Source: Blasia pusilla
Lineage: Eukaryota
Direction: 5' to 3'
Assembly: GCA_050084515.1 (NCBI GenBank)
Contig: CM114271.1
Coordinates: forward strand, 496,001-560,000
DNA: 64,000 nucleotides
Positions 5,040 to 55,780 of the stretch are shown here, one piece after another. Every line of letters starts with the position of its first letter. The first letter of the stretch is position 1. Under the pieces are notes generated by a model. The model made no database searches. It had not been told where the DNA came from and worked only from the letters and a program-made list of their open reading frames with translations. The position numbers were made by a program, and so were the translations under genes.

Positions 5040-5550
5040 TATCCGTCCTATGGACGGACTTGTCTATTTTGGTGCAACTTTGTGAATATGGTGGTTACAT
5101 GATTGGAGAGGGTTATGCCACCATATTTTATGATTGCTCCATTCGATGAGGAAGTTATATATGATGGATGCCTTTTGTGGAGCACTACATGTGTAGCTTG
5201 AAGGGTGTGGTCTATAATTAAGCGTGGGTGGAGGATAGTATTTCAAAAGGGTGCTTGCTTGCTTTCTAATGTGTTGTTCTATACAACAAAGTTGATTGGT
5301 TATCTTCATCTTTAAGCACATATCCTATGGAATGGGGTAAACGAGGTCATTGATAATGATAGTGAGATAGCATATGAATCATGCGCATGATTCAAATTGT
5401 CTAATGTTGTAAAAATCACATACATATGCGCACACTTATTCTTATAAATGAATTTTGTATAATACTTGGTTGAGGCAATACAATACGGAGAGACGCATGA
5501 TGGACATATAAGATTACACGGAAATGGACAAGTCCGTTCATGAGATGGAA
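5040..5550. mobile_element. Putative non-autonomous TIR element (GGACA/TGTCC-rich family)
   Basis: tccgtcctatggacggacttgtc (~5042-5063) and ggacaagtccgttcatgagatgga (~5526-5549) are imperfect inverted repeats. The same motifs occur at 52155-52460, 60452-60753 and ~61005-61250. Confidence 0.45.
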
Positions 5551-6775
5551 GTGCCCAATAGATCCTTAGCTTGTCCCGAAACACATAATGTAGACCCGAG
5601 CTGGTTGAACCCGCGCCCATATCATAACCCGCAAAAGCTCGCGTGAGTTCAACCGTGAGCCTTAGACGGGCATCATGCAACTAATAGATTCATCCTTCCC
5701 GAACGTTTAAATTTTGTTCAAGTACGTACAAACGAGGGGAAGATTATTAATAATATACCCCCGTTTAGTTTGTGTTTCGTTTCTGAGGCAATCATGTTAC
5801 ACGTTTTAGTATGGGCGTCAATACGGTTTCGTGTGGGTGTGTTTATGGAGTCAAAAATTTAAATCCCAAGAACGCAGGAATTAAAAAATGTTCCCCATAA
5901 ATAAAGTCCAGCATAAATATGAAAAAAGAATGCATTTAACACAGGTAAACAGGAAACACATTAAAATTTTGAAGTAGTAAGATTCCAGGGACAGGTTGAA
6001 ATCCGTTAGCATGAGTCCCGAGGAGGATAAGTCGTTTCCGTCCTTGAGAGGCGCCGCCACTCGTGTTAAGACATGAATTAGGCCGCTAAGTGGATTAGTC
6101 GTTCTGTAACGAGGGTCGTACTCGGACGCTGAGGCCTGCGGACCGGATCTACCGATCGTAATGTGTATCCGACTTTGACGTATCCGATCAGATCGCCAAG
6201 GAGGAGACAGCATGCATGATGATGAGAGTACAGGCATCTCGGCCTACCAGTAACTTTACGTCCACTTTTCACATAAGTCTTCCCGGTGGGCAGCTGTTGC
6301 TCAGCGGCGGGACTTTATGGACACGCGTCTCCGCTGTGTTGACTATTTTTCGTTGATCGTGCCGCCGGCGACTGGGACAGCCGTTGTCGACGGACGGACG
6401 GACGGACGGCCGGACGGTCGGTCGGTCTAGGCATACGAACAACGCCGACGTCGTGGTCGCTGGCTGGGTCGACGCGAGCATATCCGAGCCTGCGCGTCCG
6501 ACTCCAACTCCAAGTGGCGCTTGCGACTCCCGACAAACTAGCGCCCGACGACCGGCTAGTGGAAACGGTGACTTGTTTCCACGCCACAACAACTGTCTCG
6601 CTCGCGCCGTAGTCAGACTCACAGAGACTGTCACAGACTGACTGTGTAATGGAAGAGAGTGCACGGTAGGTATCACGTTGACACGTACCGCGGACTAGCG
6701 CTAGACTAGGAGCCGAGTGCGGGCGTCGTTTAGCGGTAGTGACGACAGACATTTTGGCGGCGGGTGCGTGTCCTG

Positions 6776-6845
6776 CTATAAATCCCGCAGATGAACAGCC
6801 TCGGGAAATTTCAGTCTCTCTCTCTCTTTCCTCTCTCTATCCTCC
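6776..6845 (+). promoter_or_regulatory. TATA box plus pyrimidine (CT)-rich initiator region
   Basis: CTATAAAT at 6776-6783, followed ~30 nt later by tcagtctctctctctctttcctctctct. This is the typical plant Pol II core promoter/Y-patch layout. Confidence 0.6.
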
Positions 6846-7840
6846 TCATCCGCTCTCATTCCAGCTCACAAAGGCATCAGGCGAGTGAGCGATTTTCCCG
6901 TGTGTCTTTGCGGGCGAATCTCTAAGACCTACCTGGAGAGTCGGGGCGAGGATCCGAAAGGACAGAGATGCGGGAGTCGATGCGAAGAAGAGAGCGAGCG
7001 GCGGTGCACCAGAGCTTGAAGGGAAGGGAGGAGTCGTGCATTGATACATGAACCCGAAGAGGAAGAGAACCAGCGCACCTGCGAAGGAGGGAGAACCTGG
7101 AAATCTGAGGTCGAGGAGTCTTTGTGAAGGAGAGGAGTGGATAGGACGGGGCGGGACGGGACGAGGAAAGGAGAGGGTGTAGTTGCGCAGGACGAGCAAT
7201 CTCCAATTTCGGAAGTAGTGGATTCGTTTCCAGAGCCTCGTGCGGTGGTGACCGACGGCAGTGGCAGCCGAAGAGAGAGAGAGAGAGAGAGAGTGATAGA
7301 GAGTTTCGGGACGACGAGGAGAAATTTTAGAGCGTCTGATTGCGCGTGTGTCTGGTCTGAATAATCTCCGGAGCCCCTTGCCCATTACAGGGTAATCTGC
7401 TGGAGGATTCATTCCGGCCTCCGACTCCTCAGCAGCGGCACGGCAAGGGTCACTTGGAACGGACCGGATCGACGCTGAGGCGAGCGATCGAGCGCATTCC
7501 GCTGCGCAGACGAGTCTGTCTTCGAATCGCTTACGTCTGTTCTAGAATTGGACTCGAGCGCGCAGCGCCTTGCCGCGGCTGTGCGAACTCACACCGAGGA
7601 CGTGGGATCTCCGGTTGGGTTCGCGAAGCGCAGAGCTGACAGAGTAAAGAAGAGGTTGGGGAGAGCGCTCGGGCTCATGGTGCGGTGTGATGCATTCCCG
7701 ACAGGAGTTGTGGTAGTAGTGTAGTCGGAGTGGACTAATGTCCGACTCTTGCGTTTCTGATCGGTCGCTGCTGAGACGGATCGACTCGATCGCTTGGTGG
7801 GGTCGGCTGCATCCTTGGACAGCTGTTTCGACTCGCACTC

Positions 7841-8560
7841 ATGACGTCTTCTAGCGGTTTCTGGGCTGCCTGTGTTCAGTGTCGCTGGAAAGCCGTGTCA
7901 ACAGCCTGTGCTGTCTCCCAGAGTTCTCGCGGTCCATACCATCGCCATTGCGGGTGCGCTCTCCATTTCCTTCCCCATCATTCCCCGACATTTTCACAGC
8001 CGAGCTGCATCACAATGCGAAGGAGCGGAATGTTCAGATCACTTTCGTTAGAGAATCTGGAAGAGAAGGCTTCGTCTGCTTGCGGCCGTGGTCTGTGCGG
8101 TGCGTGTAACGATAGGGATTTGTCCATCGAGTACACGCACAGCTCTTCGGTGCCACCGGAGGGCGCGGAGTCTCCAGGCGATGACAGAAATCGGATTCTG
8201 GAGTTGATGTGGGAGTTGTTCGCGATTCTGATATGTGAGATCGCGCTCAGAGGTCAGCTCTCGGTCGAAACTCGTCGGCAGGTTGACAACGAGAGTAAAT
8301 TGCTAAATCTGTGGGGAGAAGGAAGGGAAGTCATGCCCTCTCGCAAGCTCGTGAGCAGCAGTCGTGGGATAATTCCTGCCGGCTCATCAAGCCCTAATTC
8401 GGCGGGTCCTCTCCGCCCGGCAGCGTCACCGGTCCGACAATTATCGTCCGTCGTTCCGCAGCGATTGGGTGATGGCGGCCGCGACCGTCTACAGTTGCCG
8501 AGGCTCGTGGCCGGCGCAGGTGGTCGGTCGAAGCTTTCGAGGGCAATACTACGGCAATGA
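7841..8560 (+). CDS. Hypothetical 239-aa ORF of uncertain coding status
   Basis: Longest + strand ORF in the putative transcript. It has an ATG start and is Ser/Arg/Gly-rich, with no recognisable domain. It could be a chance ORF in GC-rich DNA. Confidence 0.25.
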   Translation: MTSSSGFWAACVQCRWKAVSTACAVSQSSRGPYHRHCGCALHFLPHHSPTFSQPSCITMRRSGMFRSLSLENLEEKASSACGRGLCGACNDRDLSIEYTHSSSVPPEGAESPGDDRNRILELMWELFAILICEIALRGQLSVETRRQVDNESKLLNLWGEGREVMPSRKLVSSSRGIIPAGSSSPNSAGPLRPAASPVRQLSSVVPQRLGDGGRDRLQLPRLVAGAGGRSKLSRAILRQ

Positions 8561-8600
8561 TGCATAAGCTATGCAAATAACCATAGAGCTAGCGGCTCAT

Positions 8601-8623
8601 GGAGCTCCAGTCACTCAGTCCAA
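8601..8623 (+). promoter_or_regulatory. miR319/miR159-complementary site with central bulge (candidate target mimic)
   Basis: GGAGCTCC-agtcac-TCAGTCCAA versus the perfect complement of miR319 (UUGGACUGAAGGGAGCUCC), GGAGCTCC-CT-TCAGTCCAA. miRNA nt 1-9 and 12-19 pair perfectly, and 6 nt lie opposite nt 10-11. Confidence 0.6.
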
Positions 8624-10572
8624 AGCTGGTTTACTTCATACCAGGGCAGGAATCGCTGTGAGGGTATACTGTCCAGCACCGAATAGTTAGCCAAGTAGTT
8701 CGAATCGTCAACTTTAGAATTCTGGACTGGAAGTCCTGTCCGTGAATGTTCAGTAGTCGTAGGTATTATTCTCGTCCACCGATTGACTGTCAGCTCCTCC
8801 GCGCGTGCCCATCAGGCTACCGATGTGGATGTACAGCAGAGTAGTAACAGCCTCTCCAGCTCTCGGCTCTCACCGCCACCAGGAATTGAGAATTGATGTT
8901 GGTCTTCGGGGAGGCGTGCAAATCTAGACCTAGGCACATTGAGGACGGCCTGTATTGACGAGAAAATCGGCTCATACAGAGAAGAATCTCTGCCGCGCGT
9001 AGCAGTAGTCCTTTAGGGTGAATGCAATACGATACTACAATGCAGCCACCAGCCCTTCAGATTCCACAGTAGGAAACAGAGTTCCACGTTGCAATCCTGT
9101 TTCAGAGATGCGACACCTTTTTCCTGGGCCCGTTATGGATGGGGCTCGGTGCTCTATGCATCTCACCTGAGAATCTGCAGAGCTCAAAAGATATCATCAC
9201 CATATTCTCACGTCTGTTTTCGGTCCCGAGGTCCCTCCTTTCATAGCCACACACCGTCTGTTTCTTTGCCGTTTGTTGGAATGAAAATCAGGGATACTCT
9301 CAATCCAGGCGATGCCAATTTCGTTCGCTGAAGAGCTACGTGTTTTCCTTGCTCGCACGTTTGTCAAATTTCATCATCCCCAGTCACCCATTCATTCATT
9401 CATTCATATTAGTGATGTTTGCGTGCCAATCTGTATCGTCACTTTCCCATTCGTAAGCATGTTCGTCCACCGTCGAGGATTCAAATTGATTGGTCAAAAA
9501 GCATTTATCGGAAGACCATTCACGAGCGAGTCTGGGGAGACGAGAACTGTAACGCTGTCTCATATGCGATTCCTTTTTGTAAAGAACCTCACTCGGATGG
9601 GGTTGTGTTTCACGCGACTACTCCCGCCTCGCGCTGCCATGCCCGGGTTGGTGACTTTGCATGTGATGGAGAAGGCTCCGTTAATTTCGCGGTAAGGTGG
9701 GGTCCTGGAAGCTGCAGGCGCTGCCTTGCAGCCAACCGGCTAGCTGGGAGCCTGCCTGGCTCGGAAGCGGACGTTGGGCGCGGGGCCGGTTTCTTAACGT
9801 TTCGCCTGCTCCGCTGGCTGTGGGAAAGGGTGCCGCAGCGCCGGCCCAGTCGCCCAGCTGCGGACCGCTCGGCTCGTCTTCCAGCGGCGGCTCTTGAAGT
9901 ACTCGACCTGACCTCGCTGCACGGAACGGGCCCGAGTCCTTAGAAGAAGAAAAAGCCCACGGTGCTGGTCTGGCGCCCTGTCCTGACCTGCCCTGCCCTG
10001 CTCTGCCTGCCGGGCCTCTGCCCGAGACTGTACAGTCGTAGTGCCCAGCTGCCCATCACGCTGTCCTTTGCTGTTCGTCGCCGCGCCAAATTTCAAAGCG
10101 AGCGAGAAGGGGGAACGTCTCGTAAACGCCCATCCCGGAAAGGCGTGTGACTCCGGCTCTCGCTCAAAAGCGAGACTTTTCCTGCTTGCCGCCTGTCGTA
10201 CGATTCTCTCCGGGAGGACGATCGTTGCAACGGGTCCGGATGAATGAATGAATGAATGAATGGCACTCTCCTATGGTCGAATCAAACAAGCGCCGTTGGC
10301 AGCAAACGTCGTTTCTTAGGTACATAGATCCACTCGTGCATCAATAGGGCGTATCGTGTAGACCTAAGGACGTCCTCCCTCTTTCCGATGTCATTGTATT
10401 TTTATGTTTCTCTAAATAACTTTCTACGAAATAATACCTCCACTTTTTGGGACCTTGTCCCTTACGGGGGCCGTGAGATGTTCTGCGTCCAATATTTCTG
10501 GGCACAAAAAATGTTTAAACGATCTGGATAGTTGGGCATTACTACTTGTCATATCTGTATTTTGACTATGGT

Positions 10573-10838
10573 GGAAGGTCAAGTCGAGTTGGGAAGGGAA
10601 GATACATTTACTAGTCAAAAGTCTAAATCTAAAAACTTGTGAATGACTCGGACTTGACTTCCTACTTCCCACTTGTCTTCTCTAGGAAGAAACCTTACAA
10701 TGGGATTAGAAAATCACTAGAAGGTAAAGTCGAGTTGGGAAGGGAAGAGACATTTACTGGTCAAAAGTCTAATTTAAAAACTTGTGAATGACTCGGACTT
10801 GACTTCCTACTTTCCAGTTGTCTTCTCTAGGAAGAAAA
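10573..10838. repeat. Direct duplication of a ~118-bp unit
   Basis: gaaggt(c/a)aagtcgagttgggaagggaaga...ttgtcttctctaggaagaaa occurs at 10573-10691 and 10721-10838, near-identical. Confidence 0.85.
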
Positions 10839-13800
10839 TCGTTAGAGGTGTTCTTAAAGCATTTAAAGTGTGTTTTAGATGAAGGTTGAAATAGGTTGAA
10901 CAAGTAAATTCATATTGCACCGGCGTTCTTTGAAACCATCGCAAGAACAAATATTTCTTGTAATATCATGGCCATTCAAAGCCAAATTATAGAGAAGTTG
11001 CGATTGCCCAAGTAGATGTAAGTCACGACTAGTGGTATCAAGCCACAAGCAATCATGGTAATAGGCATGATTCCTCATGCTTTTTGTTTGGGAGTCCAAG
11101 AGTGATTTGATAATTGCTATTCTCTAATATGTGGGACTAGTTTGGACCCGTGAGGGACCGTGATCGCACTGTCCATGTAACCCTAAACGCCCAGTTACGC
11201 CACCTCGGTTATGCCATGCATCGCACATTATGGCTTCAAAGGACGCTACGTGAACTCTCCAATGTCGCCATTCGAAAACCAATCCTCAAATAATGGTATA
11301 GTATATTGCCATCCCCGGCTTGAGTTCCTATTTATAAGGTCCCTATCACTTGGAAGTGAAGTTTCCCCACTTTGTGAAACAATTTATTGAGAAAAAAAAG
11401 AATTTTTATTTCTTAAAACTGCAAAAAAAGAAACAAGATTCCACAATATTAATTAGAATTTCCATTTTTTATTCATCGAAAAACTCAAACTCAACGTCAC
11501 AACGATGTTTTCAGGTATGAACTCCTCAATTCCCAAAACTTTTGGGCTTAGAGGGTTGACAACTCCTCTTCCGGACTAACTAAGGCCCTAAGTTAGTCCG
11601 GAATTAGTTGTATCAAGTTAAACTCGTGGTCAAGGTGAACTCGAAGGACATTAGCACTTGAGCGTTCGGACCAAACAAGCTCCCTCTTTTGACACCGAAC
11701 GTCGTAACTATCATCATCTGACATGAATCCATTTCTCATGGATCTTACCAGAAGCCGTTTCCCATGCGAAACTTGACGTTGAAAAGGGGAGAGGCCTTTC
11801 ATGCGATAGGGAATGGGAAAAGACTCTCGTGATAAGCACTAAAGACAGATTATTGCTCGCACTTGTAATAAATGGAGTGTTGTGTGGCCAGAAAATGGGA
11901 AAGGACATTCTTTCTCATAAATAAATGGGGAGTTTTGTGCGGAAAGCCAAAAAGGGGTTCACATTCATGTCCAAGGGAGAGAATAAAGTGGTGGAACAAT
12001 TCTCATCAAAGGATCCATAGAATGGATGGGGGAGAAACTCATCCACAAAGGCATAATCTTATGACTCGAATCGAAACTTGGTGATAAAGGTTGGATGAGA
12101 GGACGTTGCAACTAGGATCAAAAGTAGGCCATAAGGTGGTGGGAGAGAAAAGTCACTAGGATTCCAAAGAGGCCCTAGTTGGGTAGTTAACCCAAAAAGT
12201 GTAGATAGGGTTCCACTCTATCTACACTTTTTGGGTAGATGATTCGTAAAGATTTTGCATTTAGGACTAAAGACGCTCCGTTCTTCATGTGGTAATTTCA
12301 TTTCACTTCAGGGGCCAAGGATTCATAACTTCATCGTGTGGACGAATGAGTTTTCGCATGAGGCCAAACATGAGGGAAGAAGAAATGAAAACAAGGAAGG
12401 AATGGTAGGAATTGGATTGGTGAGCACCAAACTAGTTTATTTTTCCACTACAATATATTGGTGCAGTTTTATGGATGTTTCCCCTCCATTTGATTAACAT
12501 GTATCTACTCCAAAGTTTATATTTGGACATCATGTTCAAATTTTCTGAAAATTTGAACGACGGGCATTTTACTAGCAACATTAATTGACACTCTAGAAAA
12601 TTAGTACTCACTCCACGGCAAGGATGGTTTAAAACCGAGCCCAAATTCTTTTGCATGAAAATTCATCTTCTTTCGTGAAATATGAGTAATTGTTTTGGGA
12701 GCCATTGAGAGCATTTGTTGTTCCATAAGGTCTATAAAACAAACATCGTTTAAACAATGCCCTTTTCTTGGACCAATCATGGAATTGTATGATGTATCTA
12801 TGCTAGTGTAGAAGAGTCATCCTTAGGCCCTATGATAAGAGCCAAGAATGAGGATAGTAGAGTTTGTATGATTGACATTCTTTTAATTTCCAACATGACA
12901 CATTTTAGAAAAAATAGTATCATATTAAATATGATACCATTTTACCATTGATTATTCAGCCAGGGCCGCCGGGCACTGGATGAATAATCATATGCCTAAT
13001 CTTTAAAAAAAATAAATTTTCTGCTTGTGCTACCAATATATTTTCTTGCTACCCTTTTCCCGAGTGTCAACGGGAGAGGTGTTTGCGAATCAAAAAGATA
13101 CCCTCTCTTAAGAGTATAGATTTGGAAATATAGGCGGAAGGAGGCATATTGCATGATTTTTTGGAGGGACGAGATGAAGGGAAAGTCCCAATGAGTGGAT
13201 AGGCACATGAATGTTGTGAGAAAAATCAAGTAATGACACAGGCAAGTTCATTAGGATGATGAATAGGACGGAATAGTATGTGGATAGCATTATGACCAAG
13301 TGAGTGATGGAGAATAGGGCTAGTCAAGTAAAGTATGTTGGAAGTGCAACAAGTAGGGGTAAAAAACCATGATGGTTAGTTGTGATGGAGGGATGTATGA
13401 AGATCTACAAAGGTAGGTTGGGAGCAAAGACTATATTGACATCATGTGAGGAATGAAGAATCGGGCTAGCAACTAGCCAAACAAGGTATGTTGGGAGAGT
13501 TTAAGTGTAGATAGAATACAAAAAACCATATATATTAGGTAGATGACATGAAGGAATATATGGAGACCTCGAAAAAAGTAGGTTGGGACCACAACATATA
13601 AGGAAGGAAAGTTTAACACATATATCAAGGCATTTGTGAGGATGGTGAGGTAGATGAATAGAGGTACGTTGAGAAAAAAAACATGAAAAATGGATAGATG
13701 TAAGTTAGGGAAAATTTATGGTAAGAGGAAAACCATGGGTAAATGAGGATTTGTGGAACCCATAAGAAACTAGAAACAAGAGTGATTCAAAGTCGCAAGA

Positions 13801-41200: not shown

Positions 41201-44200
41201 GACTTTCGTGAAGGAGCAAGCGTTAGAGGGATTTTTAGAATGGAATTATGAAATTCCATAAAATATCACTCCGACACCAATGATGGCTTGTTATTACTTT
41301 TGTTGTAAAAATTGATCCTGAAAGTAGTGATATGTTTTAAAAGAAACGTTCCAATAAAATAAATTTTCACAGGGAAAAAAGAGAAATTTTTCCAAAAGAA
41401 CCTTTCAAGGAGAAACTCAATATCACCAACTCATAATTACACCATAATAAAATGTGCACATGCCCAAAATAAGTGGAGGTTTGTAGCTTTAGAATGCCCT
41501 AAATGCAAAGAATTCTAGATTTTGAACTCTTGAAAAGGCGATCCAAAGCAAACATTAATCATTTAGGAGGAACCAACCTGCTTGGCTGCAGATTTCGCTT
41601 GGGCCTCGCTGTCGATCATTTCTCCTGCTTCTCGGTCTAACATTGATGAGAAAGTTGCGATATTTGTTTTCCGAATGAGCTTCATCAACCTCTTCAGCGT
41701 CCATGCTGAAACGGTCTGAAACGGCAATGTTCAGGAGTAACATTCTCATTCCATTCTTGAGAGTGAAACACAAAGTCGGGACAAAAGATGATGGGAGCAA
41801 TTTTGCTCGCATTTCTTGAAAGAATTTGCTACTCACGTCTTTATGCCATCACCGTTCCTTTCATTATTGTGCACACTTTTTTTACTTACCTTTCAACTTT
41901 GTTCTTCATAGTAAGCTCTATGTCATTCCTAAGCTTTTCTTGCAATCTTTCTTAAAACCACTTATATCTGCCAGCCTTAAAGTCGGAAGGAATTTGAGTG
42001 CTGGAATCTTTCCATTGAGCTCTCAAGAAGTGATATCTAATTTTATTATTCTTTCTTTCTTTCAGTGTAGAATTATATGTTTCTTTGAGCTCTTGCCTTT
42101 TGTTTCCTTTCACTATATACTTTTTCCGTGTAAAAGCTGGTTCATAAAGGCGAGTCCGAAAGGATGTTGGGTGGAGTCTACCATGTGAGTCCATAACAAG
42201 TGATCTAGAGTTCTATTATTCTTTTTCATTTATTTCTATTATTCTTAAACCACTTCATTTGTTTTCCTTTCACTGTCTGCTTTTCCCATGTTAGAGCAGT
42301 TTAAGAAAGGAGTCGAAAGGGCGTCCAAGGAAGTTGTTAGTCCGTTCACAAGAATGAATAAAAATTCTTCTGGAAGACGACTAGAAGACATGAATTGGGG
42401 GGCTATGGGAAAACCCTACACTTTGAGGAGGGGAGCATTGGAGGAAATATAATGAAGGCGAATGGGATGGACGTTCGAACGTAATCTAATTGGGTTGGGA
42501 CTTTCCTGGCAAGACAAGTTAAAACTATCCTTAAAATTTTCCCTTTTGGGTAGGTTAGTTTATGCCTTCCCCAAAGCCCCTTTGCCTCTCCCACCTAGGT
42601 GCAGATTGTTCCCACTCTAAAGCTAAAGCTAAGTGCCATAAATCCCAGAGGCCAAAGGAAACAATGGTTGTGTAAGTAGTAAGATAGTTGAAATAGGAGA
42701 ATCTGATTCTCAACAAGTCCATGTCCCAAATCTAAAGATGAAAGACACATGATAAGATGCACTTCATGTCATAAATCCAAACAAAAGATAAGAGCGCGTA
42801 CTTTTATTTGGGGATATGGTGAGAATGACAACGCTCTCGTCCACTATGGAGCTGAATTCCCGAATGTGCGACTCTGAAAAGTGGAACAGAAAGAGTGAGG
42901 GATGAGGGATGAGGGAGGGAGGGAGGGTGATAGAGCAGCTCTCCGCACCTCTGAAGTCAACTCCTGCAGCTTCTCCTGCTCGATCGGCGATGAGCTCCTC
43001 GCGATCATGGGGACGGGCTCGCCGTAGGCCTGCACACTACAGCGCCTGAGCCTGGGTGATACCAGAGATGAAGCTTGGGCGTGAGGCGCTCCGTGATGGA
43101 CCCCCAAATTGGTCCTACTCGCCGAAGCACCCGCTGCCTGTCTCTGCATGAGATTGCTTCGACTAGGCGACGCGATCCCCAGGTTGCTTCTGCTTGGGGT
43201 AGATGGCAGGTTTGGATTCGTGATGTGAGCTGAGGTGGTGGTGGTGGTGGTGGTGGTGGTTTGATTGCTTTCTCCAGGTGGTCCTCTTTTCTCGATGCGG
43301 TCTGCTGGCTGCTGTTCGGGAGATCGCTGGGGATCCGAGATGGGAACTGGGAGAGAGGAGGGCTGCGCTCCTGCGGGTTTCGCCGAGGGCAATTGGTGCA
43401 CATCCGGAGAGGAGTTGGGAGGCTGCGAGCGTCCGGAGTCGGACTGGAAATCGAAAGCGTCTGAGCGCGGCGCGGAGAGTGTTTCCAAAACGTATTGATG
43501 AAAGAGGCAGTCCTGTACCCTATCGAAGTATGCGGCACGGTGGAAGCTGTTGGCTGCCACCTTCACGGCAAGAATCTTCAGCATCCACAAACAGGACGAG
43601 GTGAAGAGGCACCATAACACCTGAGCCAAGCAAGCCAAGATAGTAGACTCAATTGAGATGTGGTTGCGGCAAAGATTTGATAGATATAGTTCTGCTTTCA
43701 ACGTTGTGAGCGGATTCGAGGCTCATGAACTGGCAGATAAGTTTGCTCTCTTGATGAAGTTTAAACATTGAGGCTAATGAACAATGGAAGAATCTGCACA
43801 CATGACGAGACCCGGAGCAACCCATTCTTCAAGGTGGAGAGAGGAGGGAGTGTGTTCCTACTTTGGTGACGATTGGAACGTTATTTTTTTCTTCAATATT
43901 TCTGAATACCAGCTTCCACACACCTATGACGAGCGCCAACCATATGCAGTTCTTCACCGCATGTCTCAGCCCGTACACGAAGTAAAGCACGCGTTTCTTC
44001 AGAATGTAGTGACGCTCTATTAAGGCCACCAGGATCTTCAACAAAATAGCACAATTTTCGTTCAGCAAACCTCCTCTTCGATCGATTCTCATTGCCTGCG
44101 TTTGATCGTACTGATCTACAGTAAACCCTCCCTCACTTCCACGCTCACGCTCCTTTATGACGACGTCACATGAAAGACACATCTACAATTTCCGTGACGG

Positions 44201-46086
44201 TTGTTGCCATTCTGAAAAGGGAGAGACAGAGTCCTATCAATCTGACCACAACATCTTATCATGAGGAACGAGGAGGACAGAAAGGAAAAGGAGGCCATCT
44301 CCGAGTTCGTAAAGGTGCTCATCCGCCGGACATTGGGAACGTGCAAACCCTTTGATAGCTGCACAAGATGCAAGAAGGGAATATGGGAGTGGTGGATCGA
44401 TTCAATTGTGGGGAAAGGGCACTGCAGGAGAGTGGAGAGCCTGTGGAATTCGTTTGAGGGAGAGGTGAGAGTGTTGAGTGACTCGTGACTCCTTACCATG
44501 ACGCACCAACTAGCAATGAGACGGCCGGAGACGATGACGATCCCCAGAGCTAGCCATTGCCACAGCGCGATCTCTTTCCAAACTACCATGTGCAGAGCGT
44601 GCAATTTGACCGCAAGAATGAGGATGATGATCAAGACGAAGAGGCCGATCCACTGAATCAGTTGGAGCCACCTGCGCGGCTTCTTCTTGGACCTTTTGTA
44701 CTTCGGTATCGAGTCGTCGTCCAGAGGATCGACCTCCTCCTCAGCGGCGTGCGGCTGAGCCAGGTTCGCTTTTGATTTGGACAGCAATCCCAACCTCGAG
44801 GGCGAAAACATCCCCAAATTCGATGGCGAGAACATGGCCAAGCGTGACGTGACCGCCGCCGGAGCAGCACCTGCGGCCGTGCTGGCGGGAGCATCTGTGG
44901 CGCTGAGGCTCACGGATTTGCGACTCGGCAGCGGGCCTAATCTGGGAATCTGCGCCTGATCTGGGTCATCCTTGATAGTGATGGAGAACCTGCGGCCGGT
45001 CACTGGCCCAAATCTTGCGTACTGTTGCCCATCATCATCACCCACAGGTTGATGCACCAGGGAGTTTCGCCTGCTGCGACTTCCGGGCTCGGACCAGATG
45101 CTGGCGAGCTGATCGGATACTGCGGGCGTCATGGGCGGAGGATCTTGCAGACGAGTTTTGAGGCGGCCGAATGTTGGCCGCGGGGGTTTTCTTCTAGAGG
45201 TCAGGAGCGGAAGCTCACCCACTACGCTGTCTAGAGGGGAAGCTTCTTGATCGTCCTCCGGTGGGCCTGGGGGTTCGGGTATGTCATCCGGTGAAGGTGG
45301 CAAAGTCAGATCGCTGAGGTGCGCAAGTCTAGACCTGACATCATTCATGTGAGGTACAAAAGGTGCGGAGGGGGAAGTCGGGCCCGTCGGGAGATCGTTT
45401 ACTACTCTTATCGGATGCGGATCAGGTGCGCTTGTGCTCTCCGGCTCCGCTTCAGGAATTGAAACCAGCGTATCGAACTTGAAGCTGTCATCCGCTTCGT
45501 ACTCCCAACTGCTGCGATGCGGTTTAGGGTCGAGGGATTGAGATTGAGATTCCGCCATAGAAGATTCAAGATCTTCTGTGGAAGACGACGGTAATGGTAG
45601 AAAATCATCCGCCTTGTAATCCCAGCTGTCGCGGGCCCCGGATGGGTGTCTGGCTGCGTCCGGAGGCTCCATGGGAACCTCAGGATCTGCAGACGACGAT
45701 GGCGGGCTGGTGTAGTCGGGTGCTGCTGTAGTGGACGGGCCTGCCTCGATGTCTGGCTTTCCCTCCGGAGACGGACGAGATTTGAGTTCGGCGTTAGATT
45801 GAGCCTCAATGTCCGCTTCCAAGCCACCCTGCCCTTCCTCTTCCTCCGGTACTTCTTTCGTCGATGAAAGAACGGGCTTGTAGGATTCTTGTGCGCTCGT
45901 GGATGCGATGGCGCCACTCGTTGCACGCTGGCTCTCGATATCATCCTCCGATGTCCGGGCGGCTTCCTGCTTCCGCGATGAAGTAAACTGCTCTGAACCT
46001 TCCCCATGGTGGTCCTCATCGTCGAGGATGGGATCCGTCAACGCATCTGAAATCATCCCACGTCCTTGCGAGTTCAATTTCTCCAT
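35219..46086 (-). CDS. MSL: MscS-like mechanosensitive ion channel (MSL, group II / MSL4-10-like), 9 exons, ~1167 aa
   Basis: GT-AG exons in frame: 46086-44497, 44035-43862, 43620-42949, 41715-41578, 40502-40260, 39367-39152, 38729-38698, 37386-37110, 35380-35219. Hallmark motifs: KRVLYFVYGL, FHRAAYFDRVQDCLFHQYVLETLS, VSAWTLKRLM, ERRALALTLSD, FVFGN...IFLFVMHPFDVGDR, VEEMNILNTIFL, YPNSILATKAISNYYRSP. Confidence 0.95.
36707..36815. repeat. Perfect 30-bp palindrome (3-nt loop) plus adjacent inverted partial copy, in MSL intron 8
   Basis: cttttaattagatagatgagctatgcccat-ctt-atgggcatagctcatctatctaattaaaag (36707-36769), then gaatgagctatgcccat-aag-atgggcatgactcattc (36779-36815). Confidence 0.9.
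39368..40130. repeat. Tandem array (~5 units, 120-185 bp) in MSL intron 5
   Basis: Recurring caaaaccc...atggat...gggtgagtttcaa...agaatca...ctcaacctcatgac units start near 39372, 39493, 39672, 39833 and 40012. Confidence 0.8.
40528..40762. repeat. Short tandem repeats (ttttatcagctgc / ctttgcatt) at the 3' end of MSL intron 4
   Basis: About 4 copies of tttatcagctg(c/t)tc and several tcagctgc units. These explain the spurious N-terminal extension of ORF 40185-40646. Confidence 0.75.
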
Positions 46087-46120
46087 AGCATTTGCTGGTC
46101 ATTTGTGAGACCTGAACGCA

Positions 46121-53011: not shown

Positions 53012-55780
53012 TGTTGGATTCTCAACATCCGATTCTCTCACCACCATTAATATGATCGGCCCCCTTATATGAGGAGAAGCCTAAATTGATGGTTCCGACT
53101 TAGACGTCAAAGGAGTGATAGTAATATGATAAAGGTGGTTTGTGGAGTAGCATTAGTAGGATTATCTAACCCTATATTGCATCAAGGTGTGGGGCACTCT
53201 GATGCAAAATTTTCTATAAATAGAAATGCAAAAAAATACGTTAAAAATCCTAGTTTCCCAAATAGTCGAGAGCCGTGGTGATAGCCATTCTCGTACATCG
53301 AGTTATCTCCATGTTCACGTTCCATCGAAGCTCTTCTGTGAGCACATAGACAAACTAGGCCCCTTTATATCTCCAAGATTTGTAACATACTTCAATGATT
53401 TCATCACATGTTTATTTTCTCACATGGTATTAGAGCTATAGATTTTCCATGTATTTGGTGATCTAGTGTGTTTGCACAAATTCTTGAGAGATGTCTACTT
53501 CTTTGTGTATCTATTCTCAGCCTCCTCCGCTAAGTGAAGGGAAGTTAGATGGGTCTAACTATACATTATGGAAGTTCAAAATGAGAACTTTCCTCGAATC
53601 ATTTGAGATCTGGAAGGCACGTCGAATACACAAGTTACTTTGAGTTTTGCATGTTCATCTTCATCTGGTGATATCCATCTCGTTGTATCAATCTCGTCAT
53701 ATTGCTCGCATGAAAACGTAGAAACGCTCATGCTCTATATGTTATTGTCACGAATGTAACTGATTCTTTCATGACTACCAGACCATTATTGTTGAGGCGT
53801 GGAACATTCTGAAGAGCCAGTACAATACCAAGAATGAGACTCAGATTCAGAATCTGGAGAATCAGCTTACATCGGAGAAAAATTCAAAAGAAGAAAGCGC
53901 GGAGCAATTTTTGACAAGGATCAAGAATCTTCAAGATCGAATGGAGTTCGTAGGAATTTCAAAATCTATCGAAGATTTGGCACGTCGATGCATAAGGATT
54001 TTTCCTCCGAGGTATGATAGTTTAATCACTGCATTGAATAGTGAAGTAAGACCCACACCGATTACTTTTGAACCGTTCAGCGCAATGTTGGTAGAAGAGG
54101 AAATGCGCTTCAAAGCAAGAGAGGAAAGTGATGTAGCCTTTACTGCCAATATACAGAGGGGCAAAAATCAAGATTACAGATCAAATGTCAAGAAGAAATT
54201 TCCAAAGAAAGCCTTCAAATACTTTTATTGTGGTAAGCCAAGTCATCTTATCAAAGATTGTAGAAAGAGGAGTCAAGATGAGAAGAATGGATATTTGAGA
54301 CCTAGGAAAGAGTCTGGAAATTATGTAAAAATAAAAGAACATGAGATAGATGTTTGGGTAGCAATCGAAGAGTTTTGCACACATGTAGAACATTCCACTA
54401 AGTCAAATAGTGAAGATGCGTGGGTGTTCAATATTGGAGCATCTACGCATATGACCAATCATAAGGATTGGTATAGCTCCTTACAAGCTCTATAGGAGCC
54501 CATCATTGTTAACGTTGGGAATAACACAAAGTGTCATGGAAAAGGGAAAGGAAAAACCATACAATGGTGGAGATGGCAAGATGTATGATGAAACCAAAAG
54601 ATTTGACATAAGGTTTTTGGGCTCAAGTTGTTAATACTGCCGTTTACATTCTAAATAGAAGTGCTACCAAGTCAATGCAAGGCATGACTCCTCATCAAGC
54701 ATACTCAGGTAAGGTACCATCAATCCAACACTTCAAGACTTTTGGTAGCGAGTGTTTTGTACATATTCCTGATGCATGGAGGACCAAGCTCGAGTCCAAG
54801 AGCAAGAAGTGCATCTTTATGGGATATAGTGATGAGTCTATAGCCTATTGACTATGGTGACCTAAGGCAAAGAATATGCTTGTGAGTGGTGATATGGTAT
54901 TCCGAGATCAACCTTGTCAAGTGGCAAATATGAATGGTCCATCTTTATTATCCTCAAATGAAGAGATAACCCAGCAAAGCACATCATCAATGTTTACACC
55001 AGATCATCAAGAAGAAGAATTTTGTGATGATTACAAAGAGCAGCCTGCTCTTCCACTACGGTCGTCATACCCCTAGTGGATAAAGAAGCTCTTGGATGGT
55101 AAGGATCCACCAACAACTAATGAAGTAGCTACACATTCAAGGAGATCCAAGATATTAGAGGACTAGAATAGAGCTTCCACACAGCTCGTCAATATGGCCT
55201 TAATGACAGAGGTCTTGAAGGTGGAAGAGCCATCATGCTTGGATGAGGACCTTGCTTATCCTCAATGGAAAGAGGCCATGCAGATGGAGATGGACGCTAT
55301 TGAAAGAAATCAAACTTCAACTTTGGTTGAGAAGCCAAAGAACGTTAAGATAATACGCACCAAGTGGATGTACAAGACCAAGTACAAGTCGGACAGTACA
55401 TTGGATAAACTCAAAGCGAGGTTGGTTGCACAAGGTTGTTCATAGATTGAAGGTATTGATTACTATGAGACTTTGGCTCCTACTGCAAGGATAATAACCA
55501 TTCGCATTGTTCTAGTGGTGGCGGGAACAAGACGTTGGCATGTATACCAATACGATGTGAAGTATGCATTTCTGAATGGAAGTCTCAAGAAGGAGGTGTC
55601 TGTATCTCAGCCACCAGGCTTTGAGACACCTGGATCAGAAGAGAAGGTGTGTTTGCTTCATCGAGCATTGTATGGGTTGAAGCAAGCCCTCAGGGTATGG
55701 TATCAAGCAAGCCCCCAGGGTATGGTATCAATAAATAGACACATTCTTCCAAGAGAAGGAAGTTCATATTGGTAGGTTCA
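53012..55780 (+). mobile_element. Ty1/copia retrotransposon remnant: 5' LTR (53012-53424), PBS, gag-protease, partial integrase, RT
   Basis: LTR TGTTGG...CACA with TATAAATAG at ~53215. tRNA-iMet-type PBS TGGTATTAGAGC at 53425-53436. gag KLDGSNYTLWKFKM, Zn knuckle YFYCGKPSHLIKDC, protease-like WVFNIGASTHM, RT motifs WKEAMQMEMDAI, KARLVAQG, YDVKYAFLNG, ALYGLKQA. Order is copia-type. The integrase core is largely deleted and no 3' LTR was seen. Confidence 0.92.

What the first reader, a model, noticed from the sequence alone, without database searches (positions are those of the whole stretch)
8599..8625. Candidate endogenous target mimic (IPS1-like sponge) of miR319/miR159
Seen: the + strand reads TGGAGCTCC-AGTCAC-TCAGTCCAAA. 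It lies ~1.8 kb downstream of a TATA/CT-rich core promoter (6776-6845), in TE-free sequence with no recognisable protein, and 41 nt past the stop of a doubtful ORF. Established: miR319 (UUGGACUGAAGGGAGCUCC) is conserved across land plants, including bryophytes. AGO1 slices opposite nt 10-11, and the IPS1/miR399 mimic works through a bulge at that position. Here nt 1-9 and 12-19 pair perfectly, 6 nt sit opposite nt 10-11 (a net 4-nt bulge), and the orientation is correct for binding on the predicted transcript. With a UUUGG-type 5' end, nt 1-10 pair. My rough estimate is that a 9+8-nt split match to one given miRNA has a chance of order 1e-4 in this window, before allowing for the several miRNAs I scanned. 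Inference: a non-cleavable decoy that de-represses miR319 targets (GAMYB/MYB33-type factors; RKD in Marchantia).
Basis: partly seen in the sequence, partly recalled or inferred. Interest (0 to 1): 0.78.

Follow-up and report, generated by a model that had tools for sequence, protein, structure and literature searches.

The report
Split miR319 match in liverwort 3'UTR
A real, transcribed sequence in a liverwort gene's 3' untranslated region pairs with microRNA miR319 in two blocks around a six-base loop, but its shape, its modest expression and chance statistics make it more likely an accidental match than a working microRNA sponge.

Summary
The sequence is there. GGAGCTCC (8601-8608) and TCAGTCCAA (8615-8623) on the + strand are perfect complements of two parts of miR319, separated by AGTCAC. 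The match is unique in the window. Three stranded RNA-seq runs show one unspliced + strand transcript of about 2.5 kb (~6790-9360). It starts just after the TATAAAT/CT-rich promoter and covers the site.

The host is not an IPS1-like non-coding RNA. The "doubtful" ORF (7841-8560, 239 aa) has Marchantia homologues with the same start and a GPYHRHCGCALH motif. The site therefore lies in an mRNA 3'UTR, 40 nt after the stop.

Against the 21-nt liverwort miR319, nt 2-10 and 13-20 pair and a 6x2 internal loop faces nt 11-12. Duplex energy is 64% of a perfect site. The site fails the 3-nt-bulge mimic rule and only just passes the loosest decoy rule. Published tests found 6-nt central bulges weak as decoys and inactive as targets. 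Expression is about 5-6 RPKM.

Conservation could not be tested. Most likely this is a non-functional chance match; a weak decoy remains possible (~12%).

The parts
6777..6783 (+). TATAAAT box of the core promoter
   Evidence: Read directly. RNA-seq coverage begins in the next bin, 6788-6971.
6814..6862 (+). CT-rich (pyrimidine) tract around or just downstream of the transcription start
   Evidence: Read directly. The CT/GA repeats are also seen (I3, I6-I8). That such tracts mark the sense strand of plant core promoters is my own knowledge.
6790..9360 (+). Unspliced transcript of about 2.5 kb (mRNA). The ends are known only to the 184-nt bins.
   Evidence: continuous depth in all 3 raw RNA-seq runs from bin 6788-6971 to bin 9180-9363, with no joints. 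Nearly all reads have the first mate on the - strand, which means + strand RNA in most stranded libraries. A run contig covers 7307-9200. The + orientation is independently supported by the conserved + strand ORF.
6815..7840 (+). Long 5'UTR (about 1 kb) with 6 upstream ATGs and 5 short uORFs
   Evidence: ATG-ORF list. The start point is inferred.
7841..8560 (+). Coding sequence of 239 aa plus TGA stop, for a small Marchantia-type protein of unknown function (motifs GPYHRHCGCALH and RxGMFR)
   Evidence: phmmer hits P0007 (E 1.3e-15, 57% identity over residues 2-80) and P0008 (E 5.6e-12, 36% over 1-146). One search names them as M. polymorpha Mp1g14690 and M. paleacea Mapa_014969 / M. polymorpha Mp1g07210; the alignment shares the start Met. 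No Pfam family.
8561..9330 (+). 3'UTR (about 0.75 kb). A possible AATGAA poly(A) signal lies at 9280-9285.
   Evidence: Coverage ends in bin 9180-9363. The sequence was read. The poly(A) signal assignment is inference.
8601..8608 (+).
   Evidence: Predicted to be mostly base-paired within the mRNA (unpaired probability 0.0003).
8609..8614 (+). Loop AGTCAC, 6 target nt facing miR319 nt 11-12 (A, G). No pairs are predicted.
   Evidence: Duplex structure.
8615..8623 (+). 3' block of the site: TCAGTCCAA, perfect complement of miR319 nt 2-10 (the seed region)
   Evidence: Comparatively accessible: 9-nt unpaired probability 0.17, the 94th percentile along the transcript.

Best explanation
The site is a real stretch of the 3'UTR of an expressed, unspliced liverwort mRNA that encodes a small Marchantia-type protein of unknown function. 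It can pair with miR319 through two perfect helices (nt 2-10 and nt 13-20) around a 6x2 internal loop, so AGO1-miR319 could bind it transiently but should not slice it. Most likely the match arose by chance in fast-evolving UTR sequence. On this reading it has no measurable regulatory effect, either as a sponge for miR319 or as a control on its own mRNA. Shown: the sequence, transcription, strand, coding host and duplex geometry. Inferred: lack of function, from architecture, stoichiometry and chance statistics.
For: (1) Architecture. The duplex energy is -29.1 kcal/mol, against -45.2 for a perfect site and -40.1 for a canonical 3-nt-bulge mimic, a ratio of 0.64. Under the rule scan, the only alignments found need a 4-nt insertion plus the maximum allowed 3 mismatches, and none fits a 3-nt bulge. 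The standard eTM rule requires a 3-nt bulge (PeTMbase passages).
(2) Experiments on analogous designs. In Ivashuta et al. 2011, 1-4-nt insertions were the best decoys, 5 nt was weaker, 6-7 nt had low activity, and mismatch decoys were intermediate or low (passages). In Brousse et al. [quoted passage not shown] Of 77 Arabidopsis large-bulge alignments with MFE ratio >=0.8, only one showed function (sections 17-18).
(3) Chance. 104 of 4,000 shuffled miR319 sequences find an equally stable seed-anchored duplex in this window. 141 of 20,000 find a site passing the permissive decoy rule, and 3,459 of 20,000 do so if G:U pairs are allowed.
(4) Stoichiometry. There is a single site: only one seed match on the + strand within the transcript. 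Expression is about 5-6 reads per kb per million: 140, 146 and 179 reads laid out of 10.1, 12.0 and 11.1 million records read.
(5) Host. The protein's C-terminal half and its length vary among homologues (123, 210 and 239 aa). This suggests weak constraint around the stop codon and the proximal 3'UTR.
(6) Degradome work in M. polymorpha lists only RKD- and MYB33-like targets for miR319 (passages and Table 3). Neither homologue's gene ID appears in any main text searched.
Against: At the level of this one window the exact match is rare: 0 of 100 shuffles and about 2e-5 per strand. It sits in the correct orientation on a real transcript, in a 3'UTR close to the stop codon. The validated MpRKD miR319 site is placed in much the same way, starting 4 nt after the stop. 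All 17 pairs are Watson-Crick and contiguous. The seed-binding half is among the most accessible 6% of 9-mers in the transcript. The published bulge-size tests used other miRNAs and pure bulges, not this 6x2 loop. Decoys in 3'UTRs of coding transcripts do work experimentally. The tissue of the RNA runs is unknown, so local expression could be much higher. Conservation, the most telling test, was not possible.
Confidence: 0.62

Rival explanations
1. Functional non-cleavable decoy, as the first reader proposed but embedded in an mRNA 3'UTR. AGO1-miR319 binds through nt 2-10 and 13-20 and cannot slice because nt 11-12 are unpaired. It is held there, which raises expression of miR319 targets (RKD- and MYB-type) in the cells where this mRNA is abundant.
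For: The site is transcribed in the right orientation. It has perfect seed and 3' helices, and the central loop covers the position next to the scissile bond. It passes the Ivashuta-type rule of a 1-5-nt insertion and <=3 mismatches. Decoys work in 3'UTRs, and better with a spacer after the stop; here the spacer is 40 nt. The seed-binding half is accessible. The match is rare at window level. miR319 is functionally important in Marchantia development.
Against: It fails the 3-nt-bulge rule met by known eTMs. It has a 6-nt loop plus two lost pairs, and an energy ratio of 0.64. Bulges of 6-7 nt gave low decoy activity. There is a single site at about 5-6 RPKM. The host is a coding mRNA, and the Ivashuta authors knew of no natural functional decoy in a plant coding transcript. 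No endogenous mimic is reported for Marchantia in the papers listed by searches (listings only). Conservation is untested.
Confidence: 0.12
2. Cis-acting, non-slicing target site. miR319 binding in the proximal 3'UTR represses translation, or mildly destabilises this mRNA, so that the small protein is a lineage-specific miR319 target.
For: The 3'UTR position close to the stop codon resembles the MpRKD site. In M. polymorpha, loss of miR319 did not change RKD or MYB21 mRNA levels, and the authors raise translational control. From memory (paper not seen), plant AGO1 can repress translation through centrally mismatched sites in vitro (Iwakawa and Tomari 2013).
Against: Central 6-nt bulges fully abolished regulation of a 3'UTR luciferase sensor. 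The 3'UTR bulge decoy did not reduce GUS output in cis. The duplex is weak, with a ratio of 0.64. No degradome or proteomic data were available here.
Confidence: 0.08
3. Relic of a once canonical, cleavable miR319 site. An insertion and substitutions in the centre disrupted it, leaving the two flanks intact. It is now non-functional or decaying.
For: Both flanks are perfect while only the centre is disrupted. CAGTC occurs twice 8 nt apart (8608-8612 and 8616-20, read), which could reflect a small slippage or duplication event.
Against: No simple single event converts the canonical centre into AGTCAC (my inspection). The positions facing miRNA nt 1 and nt 21 are also mismatched. No orthologue sequence was available to show an ancestral intact site. 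The Marchantia homologues are not listed as miR319 targets in the main-text Table 3.
Confidence: 0.1
4. Part of a MIR319/159-type hairpin or another structured RNA, so that the complementarity reflects a miRNA* arm.
For: A TGGACTG heptamer resembling the miR319 5' end lies about 110 nt downstream on the same strand (8722-8730).
Against: There is no miR319-like sequence within 3 mismatches anywhere in the window. Rfam gives no hit at gathering threshold over the whole window and only noise at E<=10 over 6500-9600. The local folds are no better than shuffles (z = 0.15 and 0.16).
Confidence: 0.01

Closest known systems
IPS1/At4-miR399 endogenous target mimic, and eTMs predicted by the Wu et al. 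rules as quoted in PeTMbase
   Same: A transcript carries one site that pairs with a conserved miRNA on both sides of the slicing position. The centre is unpaired, so it should bind without being cut.
   Different: IPS1-type mimics have a 3-nt bulge with nt 10 and 11 otherwise paired, and sit in short non-coding RNAs with a conserved motif. Here 6 nt face 2 unpaired miRNA nt, the host is a coding mRNA, conservation is unknown, and there is no sequence relationship to IPS1.
Engineered miRNA decoys of Ivashuta et al. 2011 (PMC3121747; passages read)
   Same: This class allows 1-5-nt insertions and/or mismatches at the centre and a location in a 3'UTR behind a spacer. The site passes that rule set.
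   Different: It passes only at the limit, with a 4-nt insertion plus 3 mismatches. Their data show that activity falls at 5 nt and is low at 6-7 nt. Their decoys were strongly overexpressed.
MpRKD 3'UTR miR319 target site in Marchantia polymorpha (Futagami et al. 2025, PMC12369473; passages read)
   Same: The same miRNA, a related liverwort, and a site in the 3'UTR shortly after the stop codon.
   Different: The MpRKD site is a contiguous 21-nt complementary sequence starting 4 nt after the stop, with degradome-supported cleavage and a mutant phenotype. The site here is split, and the host protein is unrelated (no RWP-RK domain).
BCBP-miR398 bulged target site (Brousse et al. 2014, PMC4005643; abstract and sections 17-18 read)
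   Same: A natural plant site with a 6-nt target-side bulge in a UTR.
   Different: The BCBP bulge lies between nt 6 and 7, the centre is paired, the site is sliced, and its MFE ratio is 84%. Here the loop is central, slicing is not expected, and the ratio is 64%. In that study central 6-nt bulges abolished regulation.

Membership tests
IPS1-type endogenous target mimic (Wu et al. rules as quoted in PeTMbase) | Perfect pairing of miRNA nt 2-8 | tested here: met
   nt 2-10 pair perfectly with 8615-8623.
IPS1-type endogenous target mimic (Wu et al. rules as quoted in PeTMbase) | A three-nucleotide bulge between miRNA nt 9-12 | tested here: not met
   6 target nt face 2 unpaired miRNA nt. The rule scan finds the site only with a 4-nt insertion, never with 3.
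IPS1-type endogenous target mimic (Wu et al. rules as quoted in PeTMbase) | At most 3 mismatches outside the bulge | tested here: inconclusive
   Exactly 3 (nt 11, 12 and 21) when the loop is read as a 4-nt insertion. The rule presupposes a 3-nt bulge.
IPS1-type endogenous target mimic (Wu et al. rules as quoted in PeTMbase) | Host is a long non-coding RNA without a conserved ORF | tested here: not met
   The 239-aa ORF has Marchantia homologues with a shared start and shared motifs.
IPS1-type endogenous target mimic (Wu et al. rules as quoted in PeTMbase) | The site motif is conserved among related species while the rest of the transcript diverges | not testable with these tools
   No plant genome collection is available. 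Metagenome scans found nothing. No whole genome is held.
IPS1-type endogenous target mimic (Wu et al. rules as quoted in PeTMbase) | Sequesters the miRNA and raises target levels | not testable with these tools
   Needs bench work (AGO1 RIP, deletion or overexpression).
Ivashuta-type miRNA decoy | 1-5 inserted nt or mismatches at the centre, no other bulge, <=3 mismatches, <=2 in a row, nt 1 exempt | tested here: met
   It passes with a 4-nt insertion and 3 mismatches (rule text). 141 of 20,000 shuffled miRNAs also find such a site in the window.
Canonical cleavable miR319/159 target (MpRKD, MYB33-type) | Near-perfect contiguous complementarity including nt 10-11 | tested here: not met
   No match to the miR319 core within 3 mismatches on either strand. 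The site is split.
MIR319/159 precursor hairpin | A long fold-back with miR319 on the 3' arm, and an Rfam family match | tested here: not met
   no family; no miR319-like sequence; z about 0.15.
BCBP-type bulged, sliced target | A large bulge between nt 6-7 with a paired centre | tested here: not met
   The loop faces nt 11-12.

The most novel reading that the evidence does not exclude
The site is a natural, lineage-specific miR319 decoy built into the 3'UTR of a protein-coding mRNA of a liverwort. It would work through an unusually large 6x2 central loop and tune the miR319-RKD/MYB module that controls gemma-cup and gametangiophore development. It would be the first endogenous target mimic shown in a bryophyte and the first natural decoy inside a plant coding transcript.
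Probability: 0.1. Interest if true: 0.6.

Novelty: not a real feature. Interest (0 to 1): 0.22.

Why it matters
If the site worked, miRNA target mimicry would reach back to bryophytes. It would also show that a coding mRNA's 3'UTR can buffer miR319, a regulator of vegetative and sexual reproduction in Marchantia. As the evidence stands, the case mainly shows how an impressive split match can arise by chance. The match is rare per window but expected at roughly the order of one per genome once several miRNAs and loose rules are allowed. Bulge size, host transcript type, abundance and conservation must all be checked before calling a mimic. A useful by-product is the annotation of an expressed, intronless gene for a small Marchantia-type protein with a GPYHRHCGCALH motif.

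Tried and rejected
- Whole-genome search for MIR319 loci and canonical targets: no genome is held for this window.
- Rfam: nothing at gathering threshold over the window, and only noise at E<=10 over 6500-9600.
- Hairpin or miRNA* idea: rejected.
- The look-up of sequencing runs: no RNA holder listed in the index. The raw-read RNA runs were laid instead.
- First protein search of the 261-aa stop-to-stop ORF: no hit. This negative was overturned by the exhaustive phmmer search. A profile search of the family found only Marchantia proteins, 3 hits.
- Pfam on the ORF and its homologues: no family.
- ESM Atlas: best score 0.82, below the useful range.
- Orthologous DNA: the exact 23-mer gave 0 matches in metagenome contigs. 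Conservation is therefore untested.
- Literature: no main text names Mp1g14690, Mapoly0153s0021, Mp1g07210 or Mapoly0043s0114. Searches listed no paper that reports an endogenous mimic in Marchantia (listings only). Tsuzuki et al. 2016 is not held. Supplementary files were not consulted; they may list further predicted miR319 targets (Lin et al. 2016) or show the bulge series (Ivashuta Fig. S2).
- Coding tests on the ORF were weak. GC by codon position is flat (0.569/0.565/0.582). The 6 strain differences in the ORF split 3 synonymous to 3 non-synonymous. These did not help either way; homology settled the question.
- Two-hit or phasiRNA-trigger idea: rejected, because only one miR319 seed match lies on the transcript's + strand.
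- A control lay on a gene of known strand was not possible.
Full report
**1. Observation**

The + strand reads T-GGAGCTCC-AGTCAC-TCAGTCCAA-A at 8600-8624. The pattern GGAGCTCC-N(0-8)-TCAGTCCAA occurs once in the 64-kb window, at 8601-8623 (+), and in 0 of 100 dinucleotide-preserving shuffles. There is no contiguous miR319-like or anti-miR319 sequence within 3 mismatches anywhere in the window.

**2. Organism and its miR319**

No whole genome is held for the window.
- A long ORF at 44158-46098 (-) is the first exon of an MscS-like channel gene. Its best hits are Marchantia paleacea and M. polymorpha proteins at 55% identity, then Riccia fluitans at 39%.
- A copia-type gag fragment lies at 53764-54492.
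- The window therefore comes from a complex thalloid liverwort related to Marchantia, but not from the two sequenced species.
- M. polymorpha has two MIR319 loci that give one identical 21-nt mature miRNA, printed in Futagami et al. 2025 (passages). The distant liverwort Pellia endiviifolia yields reads with the same 21-nt core (Table 1).
- I infer that this species has the same miR319.

In that 21-nt numbering the pairing is as follows:
- nt 2-10 pair with 8615-8623;
- nt 13-20 pair with 8601-8608;
- nt 11-12 face the 6-nt loop 8609-8614;
- nt 1 and nt 21 are mismatched.

**3. Transcription**

Three raw-read RNA-seq runs of the same species label were laid on 5500-11000.
- All three cover about 6790-9360 continuously.
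- No splice joints are seen.
- Depth in the bin holding the site (8444-8627) is 8-12.
- Nearly all reads have the first mate on the - strand. In most stranded libraries that means RNA from the + strand.
- Coverage starts right after TATAAAT (6777-6783) and a CT-rich tract. It ends in bin 9180-9363, near an AATGAA at 9280.
- A run contig spans 7307-9200.
- No sequence difference falls in 8601-8623. Fifteen substitutions and one 2-nt insertion separate the RNA strain from the window elsewhere. With about 0.6% divergence, an unchanged 23-mer carries no information.
- From 140, 146 and 179 laid reads out of 10.1, 12.0 and 11.1 million records read, expression is roughly 5-6 reads per kb per million.

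The conserved + strand ORF described next fixes the orientation independently.

**4. The host is an mRNA, not an IPS1-like lncRNA**

A word-indexed search of the stop-to-stop ORF found nothing, and Pfam has no family for it. The exhaustive phmmer search of the 239-aa ATG-ORF (7841-8560) found 4 proteins at E<=0.001:
- P0007: E 1.3e-15, 57% identity over residues 2-80;
- P0008: E 5.6e-12, 36% identity over residues 1-146;
- two weak hits.

One search names the first two. P0007 is M. polymorpha Mp1g14690. P0008 is M. paleacea Mapa_014969, which clusters with M. polymorpha Mp1g07210. The alignment shares the initiator Met, an FW motif, GPYHRHCGC(A/S)LH, RxGMFR, and a second block with the 210-aa homologues. 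A profile search returned only Marchantia proteins (3 hits).

The gene layout is therefore:
- a 5'UTR of about 1 kb, with 6 upstream ATGs;
- a 239-aa coding sequence;
- a 3'UTR of about 0.75 kb, with the site 40 nt after the TGA stop (8558-8560).

Codon-position GC is flat, and the 6 strain differences in the ORF split 3 synonymous to 3 non-synonymous. Those tests are uninformative. The case for coding rests on homology.

**5. Not a structured RNA**

Rfam gives nothing at gathering threshold and only noise at E<=10. Folds of 8540-8800 and 8580-8650 are no better than shuffles (z = 0.15 and 0.16). In a local-folding model the seed-binding 9-mer is relatively open (unpaired probability 0.17, 94th percentile). 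The GGAGCUCC block is predicted to be paired (0.0003).

**6. How good is the site as a mimic?**

- Duplex energy is -29.1 kcal/mol. A perfect site gives -45.2 and a canonical 3-nt-bulge mimic gives -40.1, so the ratio to perfect is 0.64.
- The standard eTM rules quoted in PeTMbase ask for perfect nt 2-8, a three-nucleotide bulge at nt 9-12, and <=3 other mismatches. The site fails the bulge rule.
- The more permissive Ivashuta rule allows a 1-5-nt insertion or mismatches at the centre and <=3 mismatches elsewhere. The site passes only as a 4-nt insertion plus the maximum 3 mismatches.
- In Ivashuta et al. 2011, 1-4-nt insertions were the best decoys, 5 nt was weaker, 6-7 nt had low activity, and mismatch decoys were intermediate to low. 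Decoys worked in 3'UTRs, and better behind a 75-nt spacer (passages).
- In Brousse et al. [quoted passage not shown] Among 7,794 large-bulge alignments in Arabidopsis, 77 had MFE ratio >=0.8, and only BCBP showed slicing (sections 17-18).

By these data the site here should be at best a weak binder. It has a 6x2 central loop and a ratio of 0.64.

**7. Chance**

- Exact 8+9 architecture with a 0-8-nt gap: 1.9e-5 expected per strand per window. That becomes 0.15, 0.30 and 0.61 per 250 Mb, 500 Mb and 1 Gb of genome, counting both strands.
- Class of sites that includes this one under the permissive rule: 141 of 20,000 shuffled miR319 sequences have at least one in the window. With G:U pairs allowed the count is 3,459 of 20,000. 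With a 3-nt bulge only it is 27 of 20,000.
- By stability: 104 of 4,000 shuffled miRNAs find a seed-anchored duplex of <=-29.1 kcal/mol in the window.

The match is striking for one window, but it is not beyond chance for a genome-wide or scan-wide search.

**8. Known biology of miR319 in liverworts**

In M. polymorpha, degradome-supported miR319 targets are an RKD gene and a MYB33-like gene (Table 3). The RKD site is a contiguous 21-nt complement starting 4 nt after the stop codon, and it is needed for gemma-cup formation. The parallel in position is noteworthy. However, the host protein here has no RWP-RK or MYB domain.

No paper found in searches reports an endogenous mimic in Marchantia (listings only). 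None names the two M. polymorpha homologues. Supplementary tables were not consulted.

**9. Conclusion**

The interpretation needs two corrections:
- the host is a coding mRNA, and the site is a 3'UTR element;
- the geometry is not IPS1-like.

Weighing architecture, published bulge-size experiments, the single site, modest abundance and chance expectation, I put the odds as follows:
- about 0.62 on a fortuitous match with no regulatory function;
- 0.10 on a decayed former target site;
- 0.12 on a weak but real decoy;
- 0.08 on cis translational control;
- 0.01 on a hairpin origin.

The decisive missing test is conservation of the split site in the orthologous 3'UTRs of Marchantia and other Marchantiales. 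No tool here could reach that DNA.

Noticed in passing
window 7841-8560 (+): An expressed, intronless gene for a 239-aa protein of an uncharacterised family, so far seen only in Marchantia (Mp1g14690, Mp1g07210, Mapa_014969). It carries a His/Cys-rich motif GPYHRHCGCALH that could bind metal. A similar PYHRNCGCALH motif occurs twice in a Syzygium hypothetical protein (P0010, E 2.5e-4).
   Followed up: partly
window 6815-7840 (+): A very long 5'UTR (about 1 kb) with 6 upstream ATGs and 5 short uORFs ahead of the conserved ORF. This suggests translational control of the gene.
   Followed up: no
window 44158-46098 (-): First exon of an MscS-like (MSL-type) mechanosensitive channel gene, 55% identical to Marchantia proteins. 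The M. polymorpha hit and both homologues of the small protein come from a contig of the same length (31,851,985 bases), which is compatible with synteny on one chromosome.
   Followed up: no
window 8601-8613 and 8785-8798 (+): GGAGCUCCAGUCA can pair with UGACUG-UC-AGCUCC about 180 nt downstream. This helix appears in the centroid fold and would occlude the 5' half of the miR319 site. The fold is not better than shuffles overall.
   Followed up: partly
window 6980-9277: Fifteen substitutions and a 2-nt insertion (behind 9197) separate the window from the strain of the three RNA runs. This is about 0.6% divergence within the transcript.
   Followed up: no
window 10574-10837: A tandem duplication of about 146 bp, with two copies 90-96% identical (D1/D2).
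   Followed up: no
window 9388-9407 and 10240-10263: (CATT)n and (ATGA)n microsatellites form a perfect 20-nt inverted repeat 836 nt apart, flanking a GC-rich block with almost no RNA coverage.
   Followed up: no
window 53764-54492 (+): A copia-type LTR retrotransposon gag fragment (Pfam Retrotran_gag_2, E 1.2e-10).
   Followed up: no
window 7156-8627 (-): A few reads of opposite orientation appear in two of the three RNA runs (depth up to about 3 in X19 and 1.5 in X17). This is either low-level antisense transcription or library leakage.
   Followed up: no
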